From IMG/VR virus record IMGVR_UViG_3300028364_000013: 64,000 nucleotides of DNA. One strand, written 5' to 3'. The DNA is from a virus (lineage: Duplodnaviria; Caudoviricetes). Under the pieces are notes generated by a model. The model worked only from the letters and a program-made list of their open reading frames with translations. It was not told the DNA's origin and ran no database searches. This document shows positions 1-35,997 of this stretch, one piece after another; position 1 is the first letter of the stretch; each line of letters opens with the position of its first letter. The position numbers and the translations under genes were made by a program.

Positions 1-20
1 ACCAATTTGTCCACTGAGCA
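1..20 (-). tRNA. 5' part of a tRNA cut by the window edge (identity unknown)
   Basis: Reverse strand reads TGCTCAG TG GAC AAATTGGT, an acceptor strand plus D-loop like the adjacent tRNA-Gln. Confidence 0.55.
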
Positions 21-26
21 ATTTAG

Positions 27-100
27 TTGTAAGAGAAGGCTTCGAACCCTCAAATTCTCGATTCAGAGTCGAGTGACTTTACCAGTTTGTCTATCCTACA
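27..100 (-). tRNA. tRNA-Gln(CTG)
   Basis: Cloverleaf, anticodon arm CTCGA-CTCTGAA-TCGAG, U1-A72. Confidence 0.92.
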
Positions 101-166
101 ATATCGCACACATTACTAATATCCCAACCCCTGCAGAGGTTGTCGTTCATAAAGCATATGCATACT

Positions 167-252
167 TGGTTGTACAGGTAGGGCTCGAACCTACACGCCT
201 TTTGGGCACCCGCTTCAAAGGCGGGCGAATCTGCCAGTTTCTCCACTGTACA
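167..252 (-). tRNA. tRNA-Gln(TTG) with long variable arm, CCA encoded
   Basis: CCCGC-CTTTGAA-GCGGG; variable region TGCCCAAAAGGCGT; T-arm GTAGG-TTCGAGC-CCTAC. Confidence 0.85.
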
Positions 253-293
253 ATATTACACTTTACTATCAATGGTCAATAGTAAAGTGTTTG

Positions 294-364
294 TTTCGGG
301 GAGAAGATTCGAACTTCTATGGTCACTGTCAAAAAGTGAAATCCTGCCATTAGACGACCCCGAA
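294..364 (-). tRNA. tRNA-Gln(TTG)
   Basis: TCACT-TTTTGAC-AGTGA anticodon arm, canonical T-arm. Confidence 0.9.
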
Positions 365-375
365 ATATTAAACAC

Positions 376-407
376 AAAAAAAAGCCTGAACGTTCAGTCC
401 AGGCTTT
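376..407 (-). terminator. Intrinsic terminator (attenuator) ahead of the Gln tRNA cluster
   Basis: AAAGCCTG-N11-CAGGCTTT followed by T-run. Confidence 0.85.
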
Positions 408-436
408 AAATATTTTTGTTTTATTAACTAAAATGT

Positions 437-517
437 TCAGGCACCACCAGGACTGTCCTCTTTCGAAGATTGTTGCTGCTGTTGCTGCTGTACGTTTATG
501 TTAATTACTGTTTTCAT
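437..517 (-). CDS. Putative attenuation leader peptide, poly-Gln: MKTVININVQQQQQQQSSKEDSPGGA
   Basis: 26-aa ORF read by hand; 7 consecutive CAG/CAA codons; terminator then three tRNA-Gln follow. Confidence 0.85.
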   Translation of the reverse strand: MKTVININVQQQQQQQSSKEDSPGGA

Positions 518-577
518 TACTTTTAAATAGTATTCTTTTTTTGTTTACCAATAATCAGCGTGGTAATCCGCTATTTG

Positions 578-659
578 TGACCCAGGTCGGAGTCGAACCG
601 ACACGTCTTGCGACACACGCCCCTTAAACGTGCGTGTCTACCAATTCCACCACTGGGCC
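578..659 (-). tRNA. tRNA-Leu(AAG)
   Basis: CACGT-TTAAGGG-GCGTG, long variable arm, A73. Confidence 0.85.
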
Positions 660-767
660 AATTTAACCATAACTTAGTAAAGTGCCTCTACCGTTCTACT
701 GTCGAAGTTTGTTCGGGTGTTTACTCGCCTTGATAAGGACTGTCGATTGTTATAATTAATTTCTTAT

Positions 768-780
768 ACGCAAATGTAAT
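768..780 (-). promoter_or_regulatory. Bacteroidota-type sigma promoter -7 element (TACATTTG)
   Basis: Matches TAnnTTTG; similar elements near 4738, 29992, 34985, 36802, 44392, 60041. Confidence 0.65.
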
Positions 781-865
781 ACTTTTGTTTCAATTATTCA
801 ACTCTTTTTTTAATTATTTTTGTCGTAAGCAATAGGGTTCAGAAATTTTTAATATATTTATTGAT

Positions 866-1786
866 ATGAACAAAGAATCTAAAACAGAAAAGTTTATTCA
901 AAAAGCAATTTGTGCTCATGTAGATAGATATGACTATTCTCTATCTAAATATTCAAATTCTAAAATTAAAGTTATAATTATATGCTCAAAGCATGGTCAG
1001 TTTAGTGTAACTCCAGATAATCATATAAATAAAAAATCTGGGTGCCCTAAATGCAATGGTGGGGTTAGATTATCTATCAATGAATTCATTGAGCAATCTA
1101 ACAAATCTCACAATAGCAAGTATGATTATTCTTTAGTAGAATATAAAAATAACGCCACTAAAGTGACAATAATATGCCCAGAGCATGGAAAATTTAAACA
1201 GAGGCCTCAAGACCACATGAACAAACTTGGATGCTCTAAATGTGGCATTAAAAAAAGAGCTAATTCAAGAACTTCAAATGCAGAAGAATTTATTAAAAAA
1301 GCAATTTATACTCATGGAGACAAATATGATTATTCAAATGTTGAGTATAAAAAATCAAACTTAAATGTAACAATAATATGTAATCAACATGGTGAATTTC
1401 AACAAAAACCAAATGACCACCTTAGCAATAAAAATGGCTGTCCTATCTGTTGTGAATCTAAAGGAGAAATTGCAATAAGAAATTTCTTAACAGAAAATTC
1501 AATAAAATTTATACCTCAAAAAAGATTCAAAGATTGTAAAGACAAAAGAACACTTCCTTTTGATTTTTATTTGCCAAAATTAAATCTTTGCATAGAATAT
1601 GATGGCATTCAGCATTTTAATAAAAAAAACAGATACTATTCAGATGACAGAAAGAAAAAAGATGAAATCAAAAATCAATATTGCACAGGCATAAATGATA
1701 AACCTAAAATTTTAAGAATATCTTACCTTGAAATTGATGATATTAATCAAATTCTAACAAACTCTGTCAAACGACAAAAACAATAA
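866..1786 (+). CDS. Putative homing endonuclease: repeated Cys/His zinc-binding modules plus C-terminal PD-(D/E)XK (DUF559/Vsr-like) domain
   Basis: Repeats of YDYS.VEY....KV.IIC..HG.F.Q.P.DH....GC.KC; C-terminal PFDFYLP..NLCIEYDGIQH. Confidence 0.8.
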   Translation: MNKESKTEKFIQKAICAHVDRYDYSLSKYSNSKIKVIIICSKHGQFSVTPDNHINKKSGCPKCNGGVRLSINEFIEQSNKSHNSKYDYSLVEYKNNATKVTIICPEHGKFKQRPQDHMNKLGCSKCGIKKRANSRTSNAEEFIKKAIYTHGDKYDYSNVEYKKSNLNVTIICNQHGEFQQKPNDHLSNKNGCPICCESKGEIAIRNFLTENSIKFIPQKRFKDCKDKRTLPFDFYLPKLNLCIEYDGIQHFNKKNRYYSDDRKKKDEIKNQYCTGINDKPKILRISYLEIDDINQILTNSVKRQKQ

Positions 1787-1796
1787 ATCAAAGAAC

Positions 1797-2045
1797 TTAA
1801 AATAGATTTCTCAAAAAACTTTTTAGTGAGTTGAATCTATTCTTAATATATTTAAAAACGTTAATTTTAGCTACAAAGAAGTATGCTCCAAAAAACGAAG
1901 CTGACAATAGGTAGAAAATAGACATAGTAGTCCAATAATCTCCCGTCCATTTCATCACAACTGCCGTTGCAGCATCGAATCCTATTGGACAAAAGAACAT
2001 TCCCATCATTAGGAACATTATACCTATGTTCTTTCTGTTTCTCAT
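1797..2045 (-). CDS. Small membrane protein
   Basis: Two hydrophobic segments. Confidence 0.6.
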   Translation of the reverse strand: MRNRKNIGIMFLMMGMFFCPIGFDAATAVVMKWTGDYWTTMSIFYLLSASFFGAYFFVAKINVFKYIKNRFNSLKSFLRNLF

Positions 2046-2124
2046 AATCCCCTATACTGTCTGATTCCATTTAATCAAGTTTTGTTAATAATTTTCCACC
2101 AAAAGTGGACTCTTCTATAAATAG

Positions 2125-2796
2125 TTTAAATTCCTTCAACAAGAATTTGATACAGCTAAAAGCGATGACAAACTACCTTGTCAATGCTCAGTTTGCAAAG
2201 AAACTTTTTATCTAACAAAACACCAAACACAAAGAGTATTAAATCCAAATCAACAAAAAAATGGAAATTTTTGTTCTAACAAATGTAGAGCAAAAAACAA
2301 CACTAAAAAAGAAACAATAAATTGCACAAACTGTGATGAAGAATTTGAAAAACAATATAGCCAAATTAAAAAATCAAAAAACCACTTTTGCTCTCTCTCT
2401 TGTAATGCAACCTACAACAACAAACACAAAACCCACGGCACTCGTAGGTCAAAACTTGAAGTTTGGCTGGAGGAGCAGTTAACCAAGCTTTATCCAAATA
2501 TCCAAATAGACTTCAACAAGAAAAATACTATAGAGTCTGAACTTGACATCTATATACCTTCATTAAACCTTGCTGTTGAGCTCAATGGAATCTTTCACTA
2601 TGAACCTATATACGGAGTTGATAAACTCCAGCAGATTCAAGAGAACGACATCTCCAAATCCAAGGCATGTCATGACTTAAAAATCGACTTATGCACCATC
2701 GACACAAGTGGTCAAAAATACTTCAAAGAATCTACTTCCAAAAAATATCTTGACATCATAAATAATATTATCAAAGAACGCATGTTAACCTCTTAG
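2125..2796 (+). pseudogene. Start-less PD-(D/E)XK endonuclease ORF, paralog of 41334..42011
   Basis: Open frame 2125-2796 (FKFLQQEFDTAKSDDKLPCQCSVC...ELDIYIPSLNLAVELNGIFHYEPIYG...KYLDIINNIIKERMLTS*), preceded by in-frame TAG, no ATG near the 5' end. Confidence 0.7.
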
Positions 2797-2852
2797 CCAG
2801 CTTTACCTGTTTCCAACAACCGCTACGTGGAAGCGGGTTAACTTTGGTTGTC

Positions 2853-2943
2853 TACTCCTGGTCGGACTCGAACCGACAACGTTTACCTGCATGGGTATCA
2901 GATTTTAAGTCTGATGCGTTTCAACCAATTTCGCCACAGGAGC
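2853..2943 (-). tRNA. tRNA-Leu(TAA)
   Basis: TCAGA-CTTAAAA-TCTGA, long variable arm. Confidence 0.92.
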
Positions 2944-2952
2944 ATTTGTTTG

Positions 2953-3033
2953 TACAGATAGCGAGAGTCGAACTCGCACGCCTCTCGGCCATAGCTTCTA
3001 AGGCTATTGTGTCTACCATTCCACCACATCTGC
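2953..3033 (-). tRNA. tRNA-Leu(TAG)
   Basis: ATAGC-CTTAGAA-GCTAT, long variable arm. Confidence 0.92.
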
Positions 3034-3046
3034 ATGGCGCTGTAGA

Positions 3047-3595
3047 TTAATCTACAGCTTTATATTTTCTAAAAGTCATACTCACTCTTGGGCCACAATC
3101 TCTATCGTGCTTAGGAATCCTGTGCAAATTTGTATCTTGGAATCCTGGAGGCATATAGAATAAAGAACCATTTTCTAACTTTCTCTTATTCTCTTCTGGA
3201 ACTACTCCTTTTTCTCCTTTTAACTTCCACCAAATTTCTCTTTCAGCCCCAAATGATACAACCGCTATCCCATCATTATGGTCAATTGAATGAGAGTCGT
3301 CAGCGTGCCATCCTAATCCATTTCTTGAGTTCATATATAAATTCAAGAAGCAAATATCCAAACTTGTTCCCAACTTTTTATTAACCTTTTCCATTATTTC
3401 CCTAATCGCAGGCAACATTGGTGTTGATTTATAAGTTGGAGCTCCACTGTGGTCTAAGTAAGAGTATTCAATGTCAGAATCTGCCATAAAACACTCTCTT
3501 CTCATCTTCGTCTCATCAATCCAACTAACATCCCTTACCAAGGTGTCAATAAAATCTTCATTGACCAAATCATTTATGTATACTAACTTTTTCAT
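3047..3595 (-). CDS. AlkB-like 2OG-Fe(II) dioxygenase
   Basis: LN.Y...NGLGWHADD (HxD), distal HRIPK and RVSMTFR motifs. Confidence 0.85.
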   Translation of the reverse strand: MKKLVYINDLVNEDFIDTLVRDVSWIDETKMRRECFMADSDIEYSYLDHSGAPTYKSTPMLPAIREIMEKVNKKLGTSLDICFLNLYMNSRNGLGWHADDSHSIDHNDGIAVVSFGAEREIWWKLKGEKGVVPEENKRKLENGSLFYMPPGFQDTNLHRIPKHDRDCGPRVSMTFRKYKAVD

Positions 3596-3609
3596 TTCAT
3601 TTTTATTTG

Positions 3610-3682
3610 TAACTCCACCCAGATTCGAACTGAGACTTTAACGTTCGTAGCGTTAGGTGCTAATCCATTACACCATGGAGCT
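3610..3682 (-). tRNA. tRNA-Arg(ACG)
   Basis: TAACG-CTACGAA-CGTTA. Confidence 0.9.
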
Positions 3683-3985
3683 ATGAATTTCAAAGTGACA
3701 ATTAGCACAAACCAACATACACTTATCTAATTCTTCTTTTATTTTTTTATCAAACTTATGCGACTTCATTTTACTTAAAGCAAAACCTTTTTCTTTTGGG
3801 TCAAGGTGATGAAACTGTAAAGCTCCAACATATTTATCATATCCACATTTTTCACAACAACCACCTTTGTATTCAACGCATTTAATTTTAAACTTTCTAC
3901 CACGTTCTCTACTCTCTTCTTTATATCCAAGAGCCTCTAAAATTATTGGAAGTGCTGATTCTGTGTAAAATATTCTCGGTTTCAT
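3668..3985 (-). CDS. HNH endonuclease (likely start 3985; stop lies inside tRNA-Arg)
   Basis: CEKCGY..ALQFHHLDP..CMLVCANCHFEIH; paralog of 29137 and 57310. Confidence 0.8.
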   Translation of the reverse strand: MKPRIFYTESALPIILEALGYKEESRERGRKFKIKCVEYKGGCCEKCGYDKYVGALQFHHLDPKEKGFALSKMKSHKFDKKIKEELDKCMLVCANCHFEIHSSMV

Positions 3986-4000
3986 ATTTAAAATTTTTTG

Positions 4001-4081
4001 TACAGATGACGAGAGTCGAACTCGCACGCCTTTCGGCACTGGTTTCTAAAACCAGCGTGTCTACCATTCCACCACATCTGC
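4001..4081 (-). tRNA. tRNA-Leu(TAG)
   Basis: CTGGT-TTTAGAA-ACCAG, long variable arm. Confidence 0.92.
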
Positions 4082-4141
4082 ATATTTTTGGATAGTTAGT
4101 CGGAATATTTCCGATTATCCTATCACAATTTTACATTTTTG

Positions 4142-4215
4142 TAGGAGTAGAGGAATTCGAATCCCCGACATCTGACATGTAAAATCAGCGCTCTAACCAA
4201 CTGAGCTATACTCCT
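4142..4215 (-). tRNA. tRNA-Val(TAC)
   Basis: CTGAT-TTTACAT-GTCAG. Confidence 0.92.
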
Positions 4216-4305
4216 ATTTTTTCTAAATTTATAAATTTCATCTTAGGTCAAACCAAGAAGGGCTCGAAATTTAATTTTTAATATATTTTTTAATAAAAAC
4301 TATTA

Positions 4306-4350
4306 AAAAATATCTTGACATCATAATCAATATTATCAAAGAACGAACAT
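4306..4350 (+). pseudogene. 3'-end remnant of the endonuclease gene at 2125..2796
   Basis: aaaaaatatcttgacatcataatcaatattatcaaagaacg is nearly identical to ~2741-2781. Confidence 0.6.
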
Positions 4351-4394
4351 TAAATGCTAAAACCTAAATAATAATTATTTCAAAGAACTTATAG

Positions 4395-4468
4395 TGGAAT
4401 AGGGTGGATTCGAACCGCCAACGCTCACCGCTTCAAGATGACGCTCTACCAATTGGAGCTACTATTCC
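4395..4468 (-). tRNA. tRNA-Phe(GAA)
   Basis: TCATC-TTGAAGC-GGTGA. Confidence 0.88.
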
Positions 4469-4521
4469 ATTTATTTCAATAATTTTCCTTTCGAATACCA
4501 ATGGACGTTTCCATAGGGCAC

Positions 4522-4554
4522 AAAAAAAGCCCGAACAATTATGTTCGGGCTTTT
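4522..4554 (-). terminator. Intrinsic terminator (attenuator) ahead of the Phe/Val/Leu/Arg cluster
   Basis: AAAAGCCCGAACA-TAAT-TGTTCGGGCTTTT plus T-run. Confidence 0.88.
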
Positions 4555-4584
4555 AAAATATCTTGTGTTATATAATTTACATCA

Positions 4585-4689
4585 TCACACTAAAGACATA
4601 TCACGTCCGAACTTTTGTCTACTAAAGACAAACAGTAACTGCAAGAATTGCAGTGATAACTGACGTAATATGTTGTTAATGTTTTTCAT
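4585..4689 (-). CDS. Putative leader peptide, Leu/Phe-rich: MKNINNILRQLSLQFLQLLFVFSRQKFGRDMSLV
   Basis: 34-aa ORF with 7 Leu, 4 Phe, 2 Val, 3 Arg; terminator then the matching tRNAs follow. Confidence 0.8.
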   Translation of the reverse strand: MKNINNILRQLSLQFLQLLFVFSRQKFGRDMSLV

Positions 4690-4821
4690 GTTATTTCTAA
4701 ATATACTAAAATTTTGTTTTCTCGTTTTATTATACGCAAATATAATACTTTTGTTTCAATAAAACCTAATCTTTTTTAGATAAAATTAAAATTAATTTAT
4801 AATCACTTGATTGTTAGCGCT

Positions 4822-5304
4822 TTATTCTATACTAATTTTTCCTTCATCATCCCAGAAAACATTTCTCTCTCCCATTTTTGAAGCTATTTGTGATAATTTT
4901 TCTCCGACATCTCCAAGTCCTCTATCCCAAAAACCAGCACCATGACCATTTCTTGTAAGCCAAAGGTCATGTCCAATTTGAGAAGGGTCTATATTATTAA
5001 GAAGACTTCCTGCAGCATTAACAAAATCTCTAATATCTGTATAGGCATCAATTTTTGAATCGTTGTTTATATAAGATTCAAGGTCACCTTCTGAACCAAG
5101 CTCTTCTTCTGCTGTGAAAATAGCAGCTTCAATATAACTATCCAGCATGCTTATTGTATCTTTGCTTGCTACTTCATTTTCTATCATTAGAAATTCATCT
5201 TGAAGCTTTTTTTTCTCATTCTCAAGAATTGACTTTTTTGTAACTTTATTTGTTCCTTCAGATATAATAGAACTTAATTTTGATATGATTTCTTTTTTTT
5301 TCAT
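4822..5304 (-). CDS. Hypothetical phage protein
   Basis: 160-aa ORF, C-terminal GHDLWLTRNGHGAGFWDR motif, upstream TATTTATA. Confidence 0.75.
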   Translation of the reverse strand: MKKKEIISKLSSIISEGTNKVTKKSILENEKKKLQDEFLMIENEVASKDTISMLDSYIEAAIFTAEEELGSEGDLESYINNDSKIDAYTDIRDFVNAAGSLLNNIDPSQIGHDLWLTRNGHGAGFWDRGLGDVGEKLSQIASKMGERNVFWDDEGKISIE

Positions 5305-5370
5305 GATAAAAGTACCTTTTCTATAAATACAAAAAAAAACCCGACACTTATGTACCAGGTTTTTAAAATT

Positions 5371-6138
5371 TTACCACCAATCCCAAAGGCAACTGTGCTT
5401 GTGGTTGTATCTGAATTCTACGAAGTCATCGCAGTAATCAGAAAGCCAACATCCCCAGTCATCGTTGATGTCATCATACTTCGCAAACATCATGCTCATG
5501 TTCTTTTTGAGCGCTTGCTTGTTGTGATGTCTATCGGCTCTGTTGTAGAGTTGAACCATGTCTTTGCTTGGTCCACTTCTCCATCCGTGCTTTTTCTTTT
5601 CATTAAAAAATGTAGTTTCTAAAGCAGCGTCAATTTCAGCCTCTTCTTGCTTAAGCACTTCATCAATCACTTTGTAGTGAGTCTTGTAGTGCTTAGACTT
5701 TTTTAGCTTAAAGTAGTACTCAGGTAAATTAACCTTGTAAAACTTTTTAACACTTCCCCAGTAAACTCTGTCTTCTGATGGGGCGTATACGAAGAATCTT
5801 TTGCACCACGGAAGAAGTCTTTCATAAGTACCTTCGTCAATTAATTTGAAGTAAGGCTTAATGTCAACTTCTCTTTTTTGCTTATAATCATATATGGTAA
5901 AAGACTTGTCTCTGCACCAAACTGATTTACCAAAGTGATAAATTAGATTCTCAATATCCTCTCCATCTTTACTTCTGGCAATGTCTGCTCTAAGCTTCCA
6001 TTCGCCATCGTAACCATCGTGGATTGGTTTATCAAGTGGTTTGTAACCAAGAGCTCTTTGAGCTTCCCAGTTTTCGTTTAACTCATTTTCCTTTCGGAGA
6101 TAAGCCTTGAACTTTTCAGTTCTCTCATTTCTTTTCAT
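5371..6138 (-). CDS. Hypothetical protein
   Basis: 255-aa ORF. Confidence 0.75.
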   Translation of the reverse strand: MKRNERTEKFKAYLRKENELNENWEAQRALGYKPLDKPIHDGYDGEWKLRADIARSKDGEDIENLIYHFGKSVWCRDKSFTIYDYKQKREVDIKPYFKLIDEGTYERLLPWCKRFFVYAPSEDRVYWGSVKKFYKVNLPEYYFKLKKSKHYKTHYKVIDEVLKQEEAEIDAALETTFFNEKKKHGWRSGPSKDMVQLYNRADRHHNKQALKKNMSMMFAKYDDINDDWGCWLSDYCDDFVEFRYNHKHSCLWDWW

Positions 6139-6248
6139 GCTCTGTGTTTTTCTAAGTGAATACTTAGAACACGGAGCCCTTTCTTGAAATTTTTGTCATT
6201 TTTTTGTCGCTTGTTTATATATACGTAAAATTATGTAAAATGTTGCCT

Positions 6249-6452
6249 TTAATCTAAATAAATTTCATATTTATTTATCATATTGAAATCATGAGCATAA
6301 CCTTTTGCTATCCAGAAGTTAATTTCCCACTCAGTTGTAGACTCTTCTAACCTTGTGATAATCATATCAGCATACCACTGGGCCCACTTGTGAATTTTAC
6401 TTAATCTCCACTTTTTAAACTGTTCTATCTTCTTTTTCATCTTCTTTTTCAT
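6249..6452 (-). CDS. Hypothetical protein
   Basis: ORF in the codirectional gene run. Confidence 0.55.
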   Translation of the reverse strand: MKKKMKKKIEQFKKWRLSKIHKWAQWYADMIITRLEESTTEWEINFWIAKGYAHDFNMINKYEIYLD

Positions 6453-6696
6453 CTTCTTTTATAAATACTGTTTTACTTGGGTCAACCCACACTGGAGGTT
6501 GGCTCTGTCCAGATACAACCCCAAGCCATACCTTCCCATAGAATAAAGTTTTTAACCTTTCTTTCCACGTCATCTTCCAGCAAGATATGCATTGTTGACC
6601 ATCACTATAGACCCACATTGAATTACATTCTTCGTCAGTCATTGACGCTGGCTTGGCCAAGTTCTTTGTCGCCTCTTCAAATTTAATTGGTTTCAT
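6415..6696 (-). CDS. Hypothetical protein
   Basis: 93-aa ORF. Confidence 0.7.
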   Translation of the reverse strand: MKPIKFEEATKNLAKPASMTDEECNSMWVYSDGQQCISCWKMTWKERLKTLFYGKVWLGVVSGQSQPPVWVDPSKTVFIKEDEKEDEKEDRTV

Positions 6697-7218
6697 CTTC
6701 TTTGATATTTAATTTTTCTTTTATGTCTGTCTCAATCTTCTCTGCTATAGCTGCACAAAATTCAGCCTCCCAATCCATGACACACAAAACTCCTCATAAA
6801 ACTCCATTCTATTTTGAAGTTATGTAAGGATTTTTTTGAAATATACTTATCGTACATAGCTCTTTTTGTAATCGTCATAATCCTTGTGTTCTCTATCTCG
6901 ATGATATGAGCTCCACTTTGGAAGTACGACATCATACAAATACTTCATATACCTTTCCTCTCCAGTATAAATAGCTTTTGCCAGAGGAGAATTGTAATGT
7001 TTCTTACAAGTGTTTATTATCTCTGGAATGTAGTCTGCAGCTTCAGGTGTTTTTGAAACTATCCTTCTAATTATAGGAAAAATAACTGTATCTAACTTTT
7101 CATTTATTTCGATAACACGGCCAGTTATTTCGTGAACCATATCAAAATGCTTATAGTCCATTAGTGAACTACCCACAAACGTAAAAACGATTTGTGGGCT
7201 TCGTAATCAAAGCGTGTA

Positions 7219-8337
7219 CTAATGTACTACTTTAGCGATTGCAGGATTGTTCCTAATCCCGAAATTCATTATATTTTTACCTGCATTAACATCTCTATCT
7301 TCCGAATGTCCACACTTATCACAATTATATGTCCTATCTGAAAGTTTAAGGTCTTTCTTGATATTCCCACAAACATTGCACAATTTACTACTTGGTTCAA
7401 ATCTTCCGATTACAACAAGGTTTTTACCTTGCCATTCAGATTTATATTCAAGCATTGTTCTTAATTGCCCCCAACCCATATCAGATATAGCCTTTGCTAA
7501 ACAATGGTTTTTAACCATATTAGAAACTGCTAAATCCTCAATACAAATTGTTTCATAAGTATCCACTAATTCAGTAGATATTTTATGCAAATAGTCAGTC
7601 CTTTGGTTACGGATTTTCTCTTGCAATAATGCTACTTTTAATTTTTGTTTTTCTCTATTACTACTTCCTTTTACTTTTCTTGCTAAACTTCTTTGTTCAA
7701 CTCTCAGCCTTATTTGTTGTGATTTGAAAAAGTTTTTATTTTCATACACAACTCCATCAGAAGTGATAGCTAAATCTTTAATCCCAAAATCAATTCCTAC
7801 ACTTGTACTTGTTGTAATTATTTTCTTTTTAGGTATTTCTTTATCATTATCAACTAAAATAGATACAAAATATTTACCTGTTACAGTCTTAGTTAATGTT
7901 ACTCTTTTTGGTATTCCTTTAAATTCTCTATGATAATCAATAGCAACTTCTTTTAATTTAGGAAGTTTAATAACATTGTCCTTAAATGATATTTCAAAAC
8001 CTTGCGGAAATGTAATTGATTGTTTAGAATATCTATTTTTATATTTAGGAAATTGCCCCCTGCCTTTAAAAAAGTTTTGATATGCAGTATCTAAATTAAT
8101 TAAACTATGTTGCAAAATTTGGCTTGGGCATTCCTTTATGTAATCAAATTCTTTTTTTAATTCGGGTAATTGTTTAATTAAATCATACTTAGATATTGAT
8201 TTTTTGTTTGAAGCATACGCAGTAGTCTTAGTTTCTAACCCTAAGTTAAAAACCAATCTATTAACTCCAAAGTACCGTTGTAATTGGTCTTTTTGAGTTT
8301 CCGTTGGGAAAATTCTGTATTTATATCCTTTTAACAT
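7219..8337 (-). CDS. tnpB: TnpB RNA-guided endonuclease
   Basis: N-terminal YKYRIFPT HTH, RuvC motifs GIDFGIK / IEDL / DRDVNA, zinc finger CNVC..CDKC. Confidence 0.95.
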   Translation of the reverse strand: MLKGYKYRIFPTETQKDQLQRYFGVNRLVFNLGLETKTTAYASNKKSISKYDLIKQLPELKKEFDYIKECPSQILQHSLINLDTAYQNFFKGRGQFPKYKNRYSKQSITFPQGFEISFKDNVIKLPKLKEVAIDYHREFKGIPKRVTLTKTVTGKYFVSILVDNDKEIPKKKIITTSTSVGIDFGIKDLAITSDGVVYENKNFFKSQQIRLRVEQRSLARKVKGSSNREKQKLKVALLQEKIRNQRTDYLHKISTELVDTYETICIEDLAVSNMVKNHCLAKAISDMGWGQLRTMLEYKSEWQGKNLVVIGRFEPSSKLCNVCGNIKKDLKLSDRTYNCDKCGHSEDRDVNAGKNIMNFGIRNNPAIAKVVH

Positions 8338-10283: not shown

Positions 10284-11831
10284 TTATTTTGTTTCTAATT
10301 TTATAAATGGTTTAATCTTTTCACACTGTTTTAGTGCGACTCTAATTTCTTCAAATTTTCCAGGAATTACTGGATAGTAGAGTTCATTTATTTTCGTAAT
10401 GGCATAGTGAATCTCTAGGACTAGCGGCCAACCTTTCTCAAGGTCTTTCCAAGGTTCTGCATCACCAATTCTCTTATTAAGTTCTTTTACAAGCTTGTTT
10501 GTCTCTTGAAGGGCGTCTGAAATTAGATAGTTGTTCCAAAGTGTTTTTATATTGTCAATTCTCTGGTCAAGTCCAACACACCATTTTTCTTCAGACACAT
10601 AAGAGTGGTCTAATTCAATATTTGGGTCATCCACGAACTTGTCGAGAGTCTTACTAGCCAATACGGTGACTCTGGTGACTAAATTACCATAATCATCAGC
10701 AAGGTCATTGTTGTATTTAGCTACAAGCAACTCTTCATCCCAAGATGAGTTTCCATAAGTTCTTAAACCCGCAAGCGCATAGTAACGAACTGCATCAACT
10801 CCATATTTTTTAACTTGGTCAATAGGGTCAACAACATTTCCAACAGACTTACTCATCTTACGTCCATCTTTATCCAAAATAGTTCCATGAACAAGTAATT
10901 TATCTGTTTTTTTGATTCCTGCAGACATTAATAGTCCCTGAAATATTACAGACTGGAATTTAAGGTTATCTGGGCCACAAATCTGAATTACTTCAGACTC
11001 ATTCCACCTTTCTTCAAAGTCATGGTCGTCATGAAGGTCATTAGGGTAGTATCCTGCAGCAAATATGTAGTTTAACAAAGCATCAAACCATACATATATG
11101 ATTTGGTCTTCATCTCCTGGAACTGGGATTCCCCAACTAACAGTTTCTTTAACTCTGGATATAGAAATGTCCTGAAGATTCTCTATAATCTTATCGAATT
11201 CTCCAATCTTATTCTTTGGTTCAAAAAATTTGTCATTTACATGCAGCCACTGAAGAAACCTTTCTCTATATTTAGAAAGTTTGAAGAAATAGTTTTCTTC
11301 TTCAACTTCTTGAAGCTCTGTTGTTGGGTGGTCTGGACAAACTTTTCTTTTGTGTATATGCACCTTAGGATATTCAAGAGCAGGGTCAACTCCTCCAATA
11401 ATTCTATCCTCAAGTTCTCTATCGCTTTTGAATGACTCGCATCCAACACAATAGGTTCCAGTGTATTTCTTTTTGTAGATGTCGCCTCTATTGAAGGCTT
11501 CAACCCAGAACTGCTGAACATTCACATAATGCTCTGAGTCAGATGTTCTGTAAAATGAATCCCAGCTATCAATCTTAAGTTCTTTAATGAAATCTTCCCA
11601 ACTGTAAAGAAGGTCATCAACATATGCTTGAGGAGAAATACCCTTAGCTTCAGCTGCTTGCTGAATCTTTAAGCCATGTTCATCAAGACCAATATTGAAA
11701 AATACATTATCACCACGATATTTGAAATATCTCACCAAAGCATCAGCTATGATAAATTCAAAAGCGTGTCCTATGTGCGGATTTGAGTTCGCATATGGCA
11801 ATGTGGTCGTTATGTATTTATTTTTATTCAT
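10284..11831 (-). CDS. metG: Methionyl-tRNA synthetase
   Basis: HIGH and KMSKS motifs, YVWFDAL, anticodon-binding helical C-terminus. Confidence 0.95.
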   Translation of the reverse strand: MNKNKYITTTLPYANSNPHIGHAFEFIIADALVRYFKYRGDNVFFNIGLDEHGLKIQQAAEAKGISPQAYVDDLLYSWEDFIKELKIDSWDSFYRTSDSEHYVNVQQFWVEAFNRGDIYKKKYTGTYCVGCESFKSDRELEDRIIGGVDPALEYPKVHIHKRKVCPDHPTTELQEVEEENYFFKLSKYRERFLQWLHVNDKFFEPKNKIGEFDKIIENLQDISISRVKETVSWGIPVPGDEDQIIYVWFDALLNYIFAAGYYPNDLHDDHDFEERWNESEVIQICGPDNLKFQSVIFQGLLMSAGIKKTDKLLVHGTILDKDGRKMSKSVGNVVDPIDQVKKYGVDAVRYYALAGLRTYGNSSWDEELLVAKYNNDLADDYGNLVTRVTVLASKTLDKFVDDPNIELDHSYVSEEKWCVGLDQRIDNIKTLWNNYLISDALQETNKLVKELNKRIGDAEPWKDLEKGWPLVLEIHYAITKINELYYPVIPGKFEEIRVALKQCEKIKPFIKLETK

Positions 11832-24595: not shown

Positions 24596-24608
24596 TTATA
24601 TTTTATTG

Positions 24609-24693
24609 AGGTCAGGGAGGGATTCAAACCCCCGATGGGCTTGCGCCTACAGATTTGCAGTCTGTCGTCTTCAATCACTCGAACCACCCGACC
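24609..24693 (-). tRNA. tRNA-Cys(GCA) with long variable arm
   Basis: ACAGA-CTGCAAA-TCTGT, variable hairpin GGC-GCAA-GCC, U73. Confidence 0.85.
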
Positions 24694-26225: not shown

Positions 26226-26323
26226 TGGACAATACGAGAATCGAACTCGTATCTCCAGTTTGCGCTATCCTGTGTGGTTGCACTTCATAGCCTTCACCGA
26301 TTTACCAATTAATCTAATTGCCC
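26226..26323 (-). ncRNA. tRNA-like RNA with expanded, non-canonical anticodon region
   Basis: Acceptor GGGCAAT/ATTGTCC, D-arm and T-arm intact; ~45-nt insert with GCTAT/ATAGC pairing. Confidence 0.6.
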
Positions 26324-26328
26324 TTTTG

Positions 26329-26398
26329 TTGGTGTAGAGGGACTCAAACCCCCGACCCCCTGAATTACAGGTGCTCTAATCAACTGAGCTATACACCG
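26329..26398 (-). ncRNA. tRNA-like RNA with collapsed anticodon loop and C1xA72
   Basis: CCTG-TAATT-CAGG (5-nt loop), otherwise a cloverleaf. Confidence 0.6.
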
Positions 26399-26442
26399 AA
26401 CTCTTCAATCGCCTTAAGTCGATTTCCGAGCTACTTAAGTAG

Positions 26443-26525
26443 TAGTGACGGTGGGAATTGAACCCACTTTGTACTTACGTACCCACGTTATCAGCGTGGT
26501 GCCTAAACCATCCAGCCCCGTCACT
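26443..26525 (-). tRNA. tRNA-Ile(GAT) with long variable arm
   Basis: CCACG-CTGATAA-CGTGG, variable hairpin GTAC-GTAA-GTAC. Confidence 0.82.
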
Positions 26526-28930: not shown

Positions 28931-29016
28931 GGTGAAAGATGGGTTCTGACCCCACGACCTCCCGATTCACAGTCGGGCGCTCTACGACTTTCGTCTCCAG
29001 CTGAGCTACAATCACC
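28931..29016 (-). tRNA. tRNA-His(GTG) with hairpin insertion in the D-loop
   Basis: CCCGA-CTGTGAA-TCGGG; G-1/C73; D-loop AGCTGGA-GAC-GAAA-GTC-GTA. Confidence 0.82.
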
Positions 29017-33989: not shown

Positions 33990-34945
33990 TTAAAAGCCTG
34001 AGTTTACAGCATTTATTAGCGTCCTTTAATGACCTTACCCACATCATCTTGCGGTTAATCAATGTATCCACGCACCCTTTCAGGTGGTATACGCCAGTCT
34101 CGATACCTATGGGGTATCATTCCTATCGTGCAATCTAACTCTGTATTTTCCACCTACACTATCTTGCCAGACATATGCGAGCTTTCGTTACAATCGACAC
34201 CCACCTTGCGAGGATGAATGACTCCCTGATTCTGCCGAAGCATCCAGGGTCTGAGAGACCTTTTAATATACACGCCCATGAGACTTTCACTTTTTTTCTG
34301 TTTATAGTAAAAACCAGCCATGCCAAGGCTAATATATACTGCATGAGATATACAGTACGAAGAGACGTGCCCACAGGAGTGGTTTCATAACTTTTTGGTT
34401 ACAAAATGCCACACGCCTCTCTGTTAGTCTATGCTGACCAACAATTAAACCCGAATTACTTTCTACGAATAGTTAAGTAACCAAATCCAAATGAGATGAA
34501 GCCCTTGCGTTTCTTACACGCTCGAACAACACAACTAAGCTTTTCCTTTTCATCAGCCGAAGCCAACTTTTTTTGCAAAATTTCTAATGCTCAACTACCA
34601 TTTTTAATCTCATGATAGTTTACCTTGTCCAGGTAAGTACTCACTTATTGCATAGGTGTCCAACAGAATAAATTCTGAAGGCGAGGGTGACACCCCCTTT
34701 TATAGCTTGTTACCAAACTTTATCTTCCCACAAGGGGCTTGCAATGATTTTCATCACCACGAGACTCTACACAGCCTCAAAATGATTGTTATTTGAATTG
34801 TAAAAGCTGGTTCATGTTACATAACCAATTTAAAAGCGAAGGACTCTGCTATATTTCATACAGTTGAATGTTTGTCCCATTCTCACTTTCCTCACTTACT
34901 CTTACTGTCGAATGGACCTAAACATTTAGACCAATAACAATTTTT
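33990..34945 (-). ncRNA. Large structured non-coding RNA candidate (~950 nt, possibly GOLLD-like)
   Basis: No credible ORF; own TAGCTTTG promoter at ~34985 and a terminator; many hairpins (TTACCT/AGGTAA, AACTATCAT/ATGGTAGTT, TACTGTAT/ATGCAGTA, GATACC/GGTATC, TTCG loops). Confidence 0.65.
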
Positions 34946-35690: not shown

Positions 35691-35741
35691 AACCTATCTG
35701 TTTAAAGATAAATAGTACAAAAAAGTACAAAATCGACTAAG

Positions 35742-35814
35742 GGAATCCATACGGGATTCGAACCCGTGCCTCCTGCCGAAAGGCAAGCGCTCTATCCGCT
35801 GAGCTAATGGACAC
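35742..35814 (-). ncRNA. tRNA-like RNA, Glu(TTC)-like with 6-nt anticodon loop
   Basis: CTTGC-CTTTCG-GCAGG; D- and T-arms canonical; imperfect acceptor. Confidence 0.55.
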
Positions 35815-35897: not shown

Positions 35898-35997
35898 TGG
35901 CGAAGGGAGGATTCGAAACCTCCGACCCCCAATGCTGTCCATTCTTTCACAAGAACAACTAACACACTGGTGCTCTGACCAACTGAGCTACCTCGCC
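35898..35997 (-). ncRNA. tRNA-like RNA with elongated anticodon arm capped by a GTGA tetraloop
   Basis: Acceptor GGCGAGG/CTTCGCC; CCAGTG..TTCTT-GTGA-AAGAA..CATTGG. Confidence 0.65.

What the first reader, a model, noticed from the sequence alone, without database searches (positions are those of the whole stretch)
167..252. tRNA-Gln(UUG) with a long (type II) variable arm
The anticodon is UUG with a Gln-like U1-A72 pair, but there is a 14-nt variable region with a GCC/GGC hairpin and an A discriminator. Bacterial long variable arms are normally limited to Leu, Ser, Tyr and Sec. It sits next to a normal Gln(UUG), so it is a second, structurally distinct isoacceptor. It could evade host nucleases, or be charged by another synthetase such as LeuRS, which would cause mistranslation (inference).
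Basis: partly seen in the sequence, partly recalled or inferred. Interest (0 to 1): 0.62.

Follow-up and report, generated by a model that had tools for sequence, protein, structure and literature searches.

The report
Phage glutamine tRNA on leucine-type body
A large lake phage carries a real, conserved tRNA that reads the glutamine codon CAA and has glutamine-type ends, but its core is the long-armed shape that textbooks reserve for leucine, serine and tyrosine tRNAs; it most likely still inserts glutamine, and I found no paper describing the design.

Summary
Window 252..167 (- strand) encodes an 86-nt tRNA with anticodon UUG, U1-A72, A73, an encoded CCA and a 14-nt variable hairpin. It is one member of a recurrent phage family: 37 distinct sequences in 62 viral contigs. 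All five helices covary, the extra arm included. The core is leucine-type: it scores 75.6 bits on a phage class II Leu model, where true Leu tRNAs score 63.6-87.2. On a class I Gln model it reaches only background. The ends are glutamine-type. Pair 1-72 is never G-C, G2 is present in 97% of members, and the discriminator tends to match the class I Gln tRNAs in the same phage. The likely host group is Bacteroidota that have GlnRS and no GatB. Its own tRNA-Gln has the same U1-A72, G2-C71 and A73. The gene lies in an operon of four Gln tRNAs behind a 7xGln leader peptide and terminator, and poly-Gln leaders recur in other lineages. Best reading: a Gln-decoding tRNA charged by host GlnRS. Cross-charging by LeuRS is not excluded for this A73 member. 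The benefit of the arm is unknown. This scan has noted the same design before on other DNA. Charging and expression are untested.

The parts
167..252 (-). Class II-shaped tRNA(UUG), 86 nt including the encoded CCA (169-167) and A73 (170)
   Evidence: ARAGORN; Rfam RF00005 at 44.7 bits; 75.6 bits on the phage Leu class II model R1
246..252 (-). Acceptor 5' strand UGUACAG (U1, G2); pairs with 171-177
   Evidence: Sequence. The family has U or A at position 1 in 98% and G2 in 97%
227..243 (-). D arm: 3-bp stem GAG/UUC and 11-nt loop AAACUGGCAGA (A14, A15, G18 G19)
   Evidence: The nearest D arm among 416 other phage tRNAs is a Leu(GAG), 85% identical
209..225 (-). Anticodon arm CCCGC-CUUUGAA-GCGGG; anticodon UUG at 218-216
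   Evidence: All five stem pairs show changes on both sides across the family
195..208 (-). 14-nt variable region UGCCCAAAAGGCGU with a GCC/GGC hairpin; the last U can form the A15-U48 Levitt pair
   Evidence: All four variable-arm pairs covary and 99.2% of cells are paired. RNAalifold predicts the arm
178..194 (-). T arm GUAGG-UUCGAGC-CCUAC
437..517 (-). 26-codon leader ORF MKTVININVQQQQQQQSSKEDSPGGA with seven consecutive Gln codons, upstream of the Gln tRNA block
Evidence: Sequence. Poly-Gln mini-ORFs lie upstream of 12/50 class II Gln tRNAs against 0/410 non-Gln tRNAs
371..407 (-). Terminator-like hairpin (11 pairs) plus T run, between the leader and the first Gln tRNA
293..364 (-). Class I tRNA-Gln(UUG), 72 nt, U1-A72, A73; first gene of the Gln block
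   Evidence: 70.1 bits on the class I Gln model R2
26..100 (-). Class I tRNA-Gln(CUG), 75 nt, U1-A72, A73; third gene of the block. A fourth Gln(UUG), 77 nt, and a strong terminator follow just outside the window (L001:1751-1877)

Best explanation
This is a functional elongator tRNA that decodes CAA (and by wobble probably CAG) as glutamine. It is built on a leucine-type class II scaffold whose acceptor end and anticodon have been remodelled to glutamine identity. It is co-transcribed with three class I Gln tRNAs from a Gln-only operon behind a poly-Gln leader and terminator. It is most likely charged directly by the host GlnRS. GlnRS reads the weak 1-72 pair, G2-C71, G10 and U35/G36. As a class I synthetase it binds the minor-groove side of the acceptor stem. 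That the extra arm would then point away from the enzyme is my inference. Shown here: the gene, its fold, family-wide conservation and covariation, the Leu-type core, the Gln-type ends and the genomic context. Inferred: charging with Gln. Unknown: what the extra arm is for. Candidates are escape from a tRNA-directed host nuclease, or simply a tolerated legacy of recruiting a Leu tRNA gene.
For: (1) It is a real tRNA: ARAGORN and Rfam.
(2) It belongs to a family of 37 distinct sequences in 62 viral contigs, found with patterns that did not fix positions 1, 2, 71-73. 99.4% of pair cells are paired, and the covariation score is 0.847 against 0.236 for shuffles. All four variable-arm pairs change on both sides. 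RNAalifold gives the same fold.
(3) The ends are Gln-type. Pair 1-72 is UA 22, AU 8, AC 3, UG 3, GU 1 and never G-C. Position 1 is G in 1/37 members against 45/49 class II Leu. G2 is present in 36/37 against 8/49. A73 is present in 8/37 against 49/49. Class I Gln tRNAs of the same phages have U1 in 100% and G2 in 78%.
(4) The discriminator matches that of class I Gln tRNAs in the same locus in 35 of 46 comparisons.
(5) Host link. The phage GluRS is closest to Flavobacteriales/Bacteroidota enzymes. The seven sampled Bacteroidota genomes with the most similar GluRS all have GlnRS and no GatB. In the five of them that I examined, the tRNA-Gln(UUG) is U1-A72, G2-C71, A73, the same acceptor end as this tRNA.
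(6) Context. It lies in a four-gene Gln-only operon behind a 7xGln leader and terminator. Poly-Gln leaders lie upstream of class II Gln tRNAs in at least three other lineages: 12/50 against 0/410 non-Gln tRNAs.
(7) Literature. Two acceptor-stem base-pair changes convert a class II amber tRNA-Ser to glutamine acceptance, so GlnRS tolerates a long-armed body (review PMC9976931). Class I synthetases bind the minor-groove side of the acceptor stem (PMC7373986).
Against: No charging or expression data exist. No RNA run holds the locus. This member is among the most Leu-like of the family: it has A73, a 20-nt D region, a variable arm ending GU, and 75.6 bits on the Leu model. It keeps the elements that the review lists for E. 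coli LeuRS: A73, A15-U48 and G18G19. It lacks E. coli GlnRS elements G3-C70 and U38, and on the class I Gln model it scores only background (43.1 bits). Family sequences are related, so the counts and Fisher tests overstate independence. Nine of the 37 sequences came from a scan that fixed the variable-arm sequence. The host assignment rests on one phage gene.
Confidence: 0.65

Rival explanations
1. LeuRS charges it, alone or in competition with GlnRS, so it inserts leucine at CAA/CAG codons. This would be accidental or regulated mistranslation.
For: The core is Leu-type: 75.6 bits on the Leu class II model, within the range of true Leu tRNAs (63.6-87.2). The family's D arms are closest to Leu in 29/37 cases. 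This member has A73, A14, A15-U48 and the G18G19 spacing of Leu tRNAs, and E. coli LeuRS ignores the anticodon (review). Across the family G73 is enriched relative to class I Gln (25/37 against 12/41). That pattern would fit selection against A73 on this body, and it leaves A73 members such as this one exposed.
Against: Positions 1, 2, 71 and 72 are Gln-type and differ from Leu in this member and family-wide. A73 is also the likely hosts' Gln discriminator. The gene sits in a Gln-only operon behind a poly-Gln leader, which makes little sense for a Leu donor. Most family members have G73, U73 or C73, which the review says abolishes leucylation in E. coli. The two CAA codons in the phage GluRS align with Q, S or D and never L in homologues (a very small sample).
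Confidence: 0.15
2. It is not used in translation. It acts as a decoy or sponge for a tRNA-directed host defence nuclease or another tRNA-binding factor.
For: Phage tRNAs can neutralise tRNA-cutting defences. In one published case the phage tRNA's longer variable loop is required (Retron-Eco7 and SP15 tRNA-Tyr, PMC12673091).
Against: A full set of translation features is conserved: U33, A37, a 7-nt anticodon loop, the T loop, Gln-type acceptor end and an encoded CCA. In the published case the phage tRNA is proposed to compensate for the depleted host tRNA-Tyr. No nuclease that targets tRNA-Gln was identified here.
Confidence: 0.07
3. It is a decaying or neutral relic: a Leu tRNA gene with an A35U anticodon mutation and no selected function.
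For: UUG is one base from the Leu anticodon UAG, and the variable arm nearly matches that of the phage's own Leu(UAG).
Against: There are 37 distinct sequences in 62 contigs, with compensatory changes in every helix and consistently remodelled acceptor ends. Identical sequence occurs in three further lake runs, which are all from 2017 and may be one sampling campaign.
Confidence: 0.05
4. TyrRS charges it. The bacterial tyrosine identity set is A73, U35 and a long arm.
For: A73, U35 and a class II arm are present. The review table lists A73, G34 and U35 for bacterial Tyr.
Against: It has U34 rather than G34. A15-U48 and the D arm are Leu-type. The phage's own Tyr tRNA scores only 55.3 bits on the Leu model, against 75.6 for this tRNA. 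The context is a Gln operon.
Confidence: 0.03

Closest known systems
Canonical class I bacterial and phage tRNA-Gln(UUG), for example the tRNA-Gln of the sampled Bacteroidota genomes (L222-L227) and the neighbouring gene at window 293-364
   Same: Anticodon UUG with U33; U1-A72, G2-C71, A73 and G10; same operon.
   Different: The canonical form has a 4-5-nt variable loop, a 4-bp D stem and a shorter D region. This tRNA has a 14-nt variable hairpin and a 3-bp D stem with a Leu-type loop. It scores only 43.1 bits on the class I Gln model, against 56.5-70.1 for true members.
Bacterial and phage class II tRNA-Leu
   Same: D arm, variable hairpin (UGCC-loop-GGCGU), A15-U48, T arm and A73. It scores 75.6 bits on the Leu model.
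   Different: The anticodon has U35 instead of the invariant A35. It has U1-A72 and G2-C71 where Leu tRNAs usually have G1 (92%) and C2-G71 (80%). It lies in a Gln operon.
Laboratory class II suppressor tRNAs switched to glutamine identity (amber tRNA-Ser with two acceptor-stem pairs changed; reviewed in PMC9976931)
   Same: A long-armed body becomes a GlnRS substrate when pairs 1-72 and 3-70 and the middle anticodon base are Gln-like.
   Different: Those are engineered amber suppressors. This is a natural sense-codon tRNA conserved across many phages.
allo-tRNAs and selC*-type tRNAs (Mukai et al. 2017, PMC5389517)
   Same: [quoted passage not shown]
   Different: Those have 8/4 or 9/3 acceptor/T branches, long anticodon stems and Ser-type identity. 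This tRNA has the standard 7/5 geometry, a Leu-type core and Gln-type ends.
Phage SP15 tRNA-Tyr, which neutralises Retron-Eco7 (PMC12673091)
   Same: A phage tRNA whose altered variable arm matters in a conflict with a host tRNA nuclease. It is a possible model for why the arm is kept.
   Different: That tRNA is an ordinary class II isotype with a lengthened arm. No defence system is linked to the Gln tRNA here.

Membership tests
tRNA (Rfam RF00005) | Cloverleaf with a 7-bp acceptor stem, a 5-bp anticodon stem, a 7-nt loop with U33, and a 5-bp T stem with a GTTCRA loop | tested here: met
   ARAGORN; Rfam 44.7 bits against a gathering score of 29
tRNA (Rfam RF00005) | Conserved tertiary nucleotides U8, A14, G18 G19, U54 U55 C56 and A58 | tested here: met
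   Read from the sequence; invariant in the family alignment
Class II (long variable arm) tRNA | Variable region of 10 nt or more that forms a stem-loop | tested here: met
   14 nt with a GCC/GGC stem. The arm's four pairs covary in 37 homologues. RNAalifold predicts it
Bacterial tRNA-Gln (GlnRS identity set of E. coli, review PMC9976931) | U34/C34, U35, G36, A37 | tested here: met
   Loop CUUUGAA
Bacterial tRNA-Gln (GlnRS identity set of E. coli, review PMC9976931) | Weak first pair U1-A72, plus G2-C71 and G10 | tested here: met
   Sequence. Family-wide, 1-72 is never G-C and G2 is present in 97%
Bacterial tRNA-Gln (GlnRS identity set of E. coli, review PMC9976931) | G3-C70, U38 and G73 | tested here: not met
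   It has U3-A70, A38 and A73. However, A73 is the discriminator of tRNA-Gln in the sampled Bacteroidota genomes closest to the phage GluRS, and of two of the three class I Gln tRNAs of this phage
Bacterial tRNA-Gln (GlnRS identity set of E. coli, review PMC9976931) | Class I shape (4-5-nt variable loop) | tested here: not met
   14-nt variable arm; 43.1 bits on the class I Gln model, at the level of Val
Bacterial tRNA-Gln (GlnRS identity set of E. coli, review PMC9976931) | Charged with glutamine | not testable with these tools
   Needs a charging assay or mass spectrometry
Bacterial tRNA-Leu (LeuRS identity, E. coli) | A73 plus tertiary elements A15-U48, G18G19 placement and the D-loop A after G19 | tested here: met
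   Sequence read against the review; 75.6 bits on the Leu class II model
Bacterial tRNA-Leu (LeuRS identity, E. coli) | Leu anticodon (A35 in all isoacceptors) and the usual G1 and C2-G71 | tested here: not met
   It has U35, U1-A72 and G2-C71. Among 49 phage class II Leu tRNAs, A35 is found in 100%, G1 in 92% and C2 in 80%
allo-tRNA / selC* tRNA (PMC5389517) | 8/4 or 9/3 acceptor/T branch and a lengthened anticodon stem | tested here: not met
   7-bp acceptor and 5-bp T stem

The most novel reading that the evidence does not exclude
The tRNA has dual identity. Because this member keeps A73 on a Leu-type core, LeuRS charges a fraction of it. When the poly-Gln leader opens the operon, the phage would then deliberately or tolerably insert leucine at some CAA/CAG codons. 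That would be a natural, regulated mistranslating tRNA caught midway through a Leu-to-Gln identity switch.
Probability: 0.12. Interest if true: 0.85.

Novelty: new variant of a known kind. Interest (0 to 1): 0.6.

Why it matters
Textbooks and current reviews reserve long variable arms in bacteria for Leu, Ser, Tyr and Sec tRNAs. This finding is a conserved, widespread phage tRNA-Gln on a Leu-type class II body. It shows that tRNA shape class and amino-acid identity can be uncoupled in nature. It also provides a natural series of sequences that records which positions change when a tRNA gene switches identity: 1, 2, 71, 72, 73 and 35. That makes old questions testable. How much of the tRNA body do GlnRS and LeuRS really read? 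Are extra arms used in phage-host conflicts over tRNAs? Can such tRNAs serve as orthogonal scaffolds for genetic-code engineering?

Tried and rejected
- An exact scan with the anticodon arm found only class I Gln tRNAs and chance hits.
- Megablast of window 1-8000 against GenBank phages found no relative, only a 206-nt match inside an HNH endonuclease gene.
- A scan of one genome per 185,579 prokaryote species with the variable-arm pattern gave 54 hits, of which only two were tRNAs.
- No RNA holder is listed for the locus.
- Contigs from four other lake runs laid on the window showed no variants; three of the runs covered the tRNA. This says nothing about expression.
- The single-sequence MFE fold is not a cloverleaf.
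- A tree of D plus T arms (37 columns) was too poorly resolved to say whether the family arose once or several times from Leu.
- The codon check of CAA = Gln had only two CAA codons in the phage GluRS.
- BLAST with a Bacteroides tRNA-Gln and the pattern CCAAGYGGTAAGGC missed the relevant host-group tRNA-Gln. A covariance model found them.
- The phage record (78% complete) holds no GlnRS and no GatB, so a phage-encoded Gln pathway was dropped.
- Its GluRS groups with enzymes of genomes that use GlnRS directly, so I did not pursue GluRS as the charging enzyme.
- Four literature searches found no description of class II tRNA-Gln.

Full report
**Observation**

ARAGORN finds 37 tRNA genes in the window, all on the - strand. 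One is an 86-nt tRNA-Gln(ttg) at 167-252. Rfam's tRNA model matches 170-252 at 44.7 bits, against a gathering score of 29.

Read from the sequence and drawn by ARAGORN, the gene has these parts:
- acceptor stem UGUACAG/CUGUACA, with U1-A72 and G2-C71
- U8 and G9
- a 3-bp D stem with an 11-nt loop
- anticodon stem CCCGC/GCGGG with loop CUUUGAA
- a 14-nt variable region UGCCCAAAAGGCGU containing a GCC/GGC hairpin
- a standard T arm
- discriminator A73 and an encoded CCA

**Setting**

The window is part of a 195-kb IMG/VR virus record, 78% complete by CheckV. The record carries 40 tRNA genes.

On the transcribed strand the order is as follows:
1. tRNA-Leu(AAG)
2. a 26-codon ORF with seven consecutive Gln codons (517..437)
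3. an 11-pair terminator hairpin (407..381)
4. class I Gln(UUG)
5. the long-armed Gln(UUG)
6. Gln(CUG)
7. a fourth Gln(UUG) with a 7-nt variable loop
8. a strong terminator

So the gene lies in a Gln-only transcription unit behind a poly-Gln leader. I confirmed the ORF and the terminator but did not re-test the attenuator mechanism.

**It is a family, not a one-off**

I ran two pattern scans of IMG/VR. The first fixed the variable-arm sequence. The second fixed only U8-A15, the UUUGA of the anticodon loop, the T loop and a long spacing. ARAGORN then found 62 class II-shaped tRNA(UUG) genes with 37 distinct sequences of 82-90 nt, on contigs of 12 to 543 kb.

On their alignment (A1):
- 99.4% of pair cells are standard pairs, against 69% in shuffles.
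- 22 of 24 pairs show changes on both sides.
- The covariation score is 0.847, against 0.236 for shuffles and 0.13-0.19 for slid registers.
- All four variable-arm pairs covary.

RNAalifold independently predicts the five-helix cloverleaf.

A scan of one genome for each of 185,579 prokaryote species found only two such tRNAs. One of them lies on a probable phage contig binned with a Bacteroides MAG. The design is therefore essentially viral.

**A leucine-type core**

The family's D arms are on average 72% identical to class II Leu tRNAs of the same loci, against 62% for class I Gln. The nearest neighbour is a Leu tRNA for 29 of 37 members.

I built covariance models from phage class II Leu tRNAs (R1) and class I Gln tRNAs (R2), holding out the window's own genes.
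- On R1 the window's true Leu tRNAs score 63.6-87.2 bits. The long-armed tRNA scores 75.6, Tyr 55.3 and class I Gln 32-44.
- On R2 true Gln tRNAs score 56.5-70.1 bits. The long-armed tRNA scores 43.1, the same as Val.

A tRNAscan-style isotype test would therefore report a Leu body with a Gln anticodon. The long-armed Cys(GCA) and Ile(GAU) genes of the same window are not Leu-like on R1 (39.7 and 46.2 bits).

**Glutamine-type ends**

None of the following positions was fixed by the search patterns.
- Pair 1-72 is UA 22, AU 8, AC 3, UG 3, GU 1 and never G-C.
- Position 1 is G in 1/37 family members, against 45/49 class II Leu.
- G2 is present in 36/37 members, against 8/49 Leu.
- A73 is present in 8/37 members, against 49/49 Leu.
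- Class I Gln tRNAs have U1 in 100% and G2 in 78%.

Within a locus, the discriminator of the long form equals that of the short Gln tRNAs in 35 of 46 comparisons. G73 is commoner on the long form than on class I Gln (25/37 against 12/41). That fits avoidance of the Leu determinant A73 on this body. The sequences are related, so the P values overstate independence.

**Host and charging route**

The phage encodes a bacterial-type GluRS (TIGR00464, 460.8 bits) and a MetRS. It encodes no GlnRS and no GatB.

The nearest cellular GluRS sequences, about 50% identical, come from Flavobacteriales and other Bacteroidota. In a sample of 61 Bacteroidota genomes, the seven with the most similar GluRS all have GlnRS and lack GatB. 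In the five of these that I examined, the tRNA-Gln(UUG) has U1-A72, G2-C71, A73 and no encoded CCA.

So A73 on the window's tRNA is the Gln discriminator of the likely host group, not necessarily a Leu leftover. The direct GlnRS route is the likely one.

The published record shows that GlnRS can accept a class II body. Two acceptor-pair changes turn an amber tRNA-Ser into a glutamine acceptor (review PMC9976931). Class I synthetases approach the acceptor stem from the minor-groove side (PMC7373986). From this I infer, without having tested it, that the arm points away from the enzyme.

**Context in other lineages**

Mini-ORFs with four or more consecutive Gln codons lie within 300 nt upstream of 12 of 50 class II Gln tRNAs. 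These represent at least three other leader sequences, in L009, L013 and the L084 group. The same search gives 0 of 410 for non-Gln tRNAs and 0.4% for random windows. This ties the long-armed tRNA to glutamine decoding in several lineages.

**What remains open**

This member is unusually Leu-like. It has A73, a 20-nt D region and a variable arm ending GU. It retains the elements that the review lists for E. coli LeuRS. Partial leucylation therefore cannot be excluded.

Nothing here shows expression. No RNA run is listed for the locus. Identical DNA occurs in three other lake-water runs, all from 2017 and possibly one campaign.

The purpose of the arm is unknown. The only precedent I found is a phage tRNA-Tyr whose longer variable loop is needed to neutralise Retron-Eco7 (PMC12673091).

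**Novelty**

Reviews still restrict class II shape to Leu, Ser, Tyr and Sec (PMC7609411). The non-canonical tRNAs of Mukai et al. have a different geometry. Four literature searches found no description of class II tRNA-Gln.

Earlier notes of this scan report the same design in other phage genomes. It is therefore recurrent, and apparently unpublished.

Noticed in passing
window 33995-34421 (-): A full-length GOLLD RNA (Rfam RF02032, 169.4 bits, gathering score 150) sits among the phage tRNA genes.
   Followed up: no
window 24608-24693 (-) and 26442-26525 (-): Two more class I isotypes with long variable hairpins: tRNA-Cys(GCA), 86 nt, with the Cys discriminator U73; and tRNA-Ile(GAU), 84 nt, with A73. 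Unlike the Gln gene they are not Leu-bodied (39.7 and 46.2 bits on the Leu model).
   Followed up: partly
window 35898-35997, 26226-26323, 28931-29015, 26329-26398, 35741-35813 (all -): Rfam matches tRNA-like genes here that ARAGORN misses or calls oddly. Two are 98-100 nt with about 25-nt inserts in or beside the anticodon arm. One is 85 nt with a GUG anticodon and a hairpin inserted in the D loop. One is 73 nt and appears to have a 4-nt anticodon loop.
   Followed up: partly
window 437-517 (-) and 371-407 (-): A 26-codon leader with seven consecutive Gln codons, followed by a terminator hairpin, lies ahead of the four Gln tRNAs. Similar poly-Gln mini-ORFs precede class II Gln tRNAs in L009, L013 and the L084 group.
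   Followed up: partly
window 258-288 (-): An AT-rich inverted repeat of about 12 bp (CACUUUACUAU...AUAGUAAAGUG) fills the spacer between the class I Gln(UUG) and the long-armed gene. It could be a processing site, or a promoter region, since sigma-70-like hexamers overlap it.
   Followed up: no
window 10284-11831 (-); genome 147699-149240 (L175:1492-3033), outside the window: The phage encodes its own MetRS (TIGR00398, 367.8 bits) and a bacterial-type GluRS (TIGR00464, 460.8 bits). The GluRS is about 50% identical to Flavobacteriales/Bacteroidota enzymes.
   Followed up: partly
genome 73284-73356, outside the window: A tRNA with the amber-reading anticodon CUA (ARAGORN labels it 'Pyl') suggests that TAG may be read through in part of this phage's genes.
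   Followed up: no
L068:5621-5705 (Oleiharenicola MAG, Verrucomicrobiota): A bacterial class II tRNA has a UUG anticodon but Leu-type ends (G1-C72, A73, encoded CCA). Unlike the phage family, this one looks like a true Leu-bodied, Leu-ended tRNA that reads a Gln codon.
   Followed up: no
window 577-659 (-): tRNA-Leu with the unusual unmodified-looking anticodon AAG (A34). In bacteria A34 is normally confined to tRNA-Arg(ACG).
   Followed up: no
L204:114-188 and L180:527-613 (Bacteroides MAG G001): This MAG's own tRNA-Gln has A1-U72 and G73. The long-armed tRNA(UUG) on a contig binned with it has the same A1-U72 and G73. This is a second case where the long form copies the local Gln acceptor end.
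   Followed up: partly
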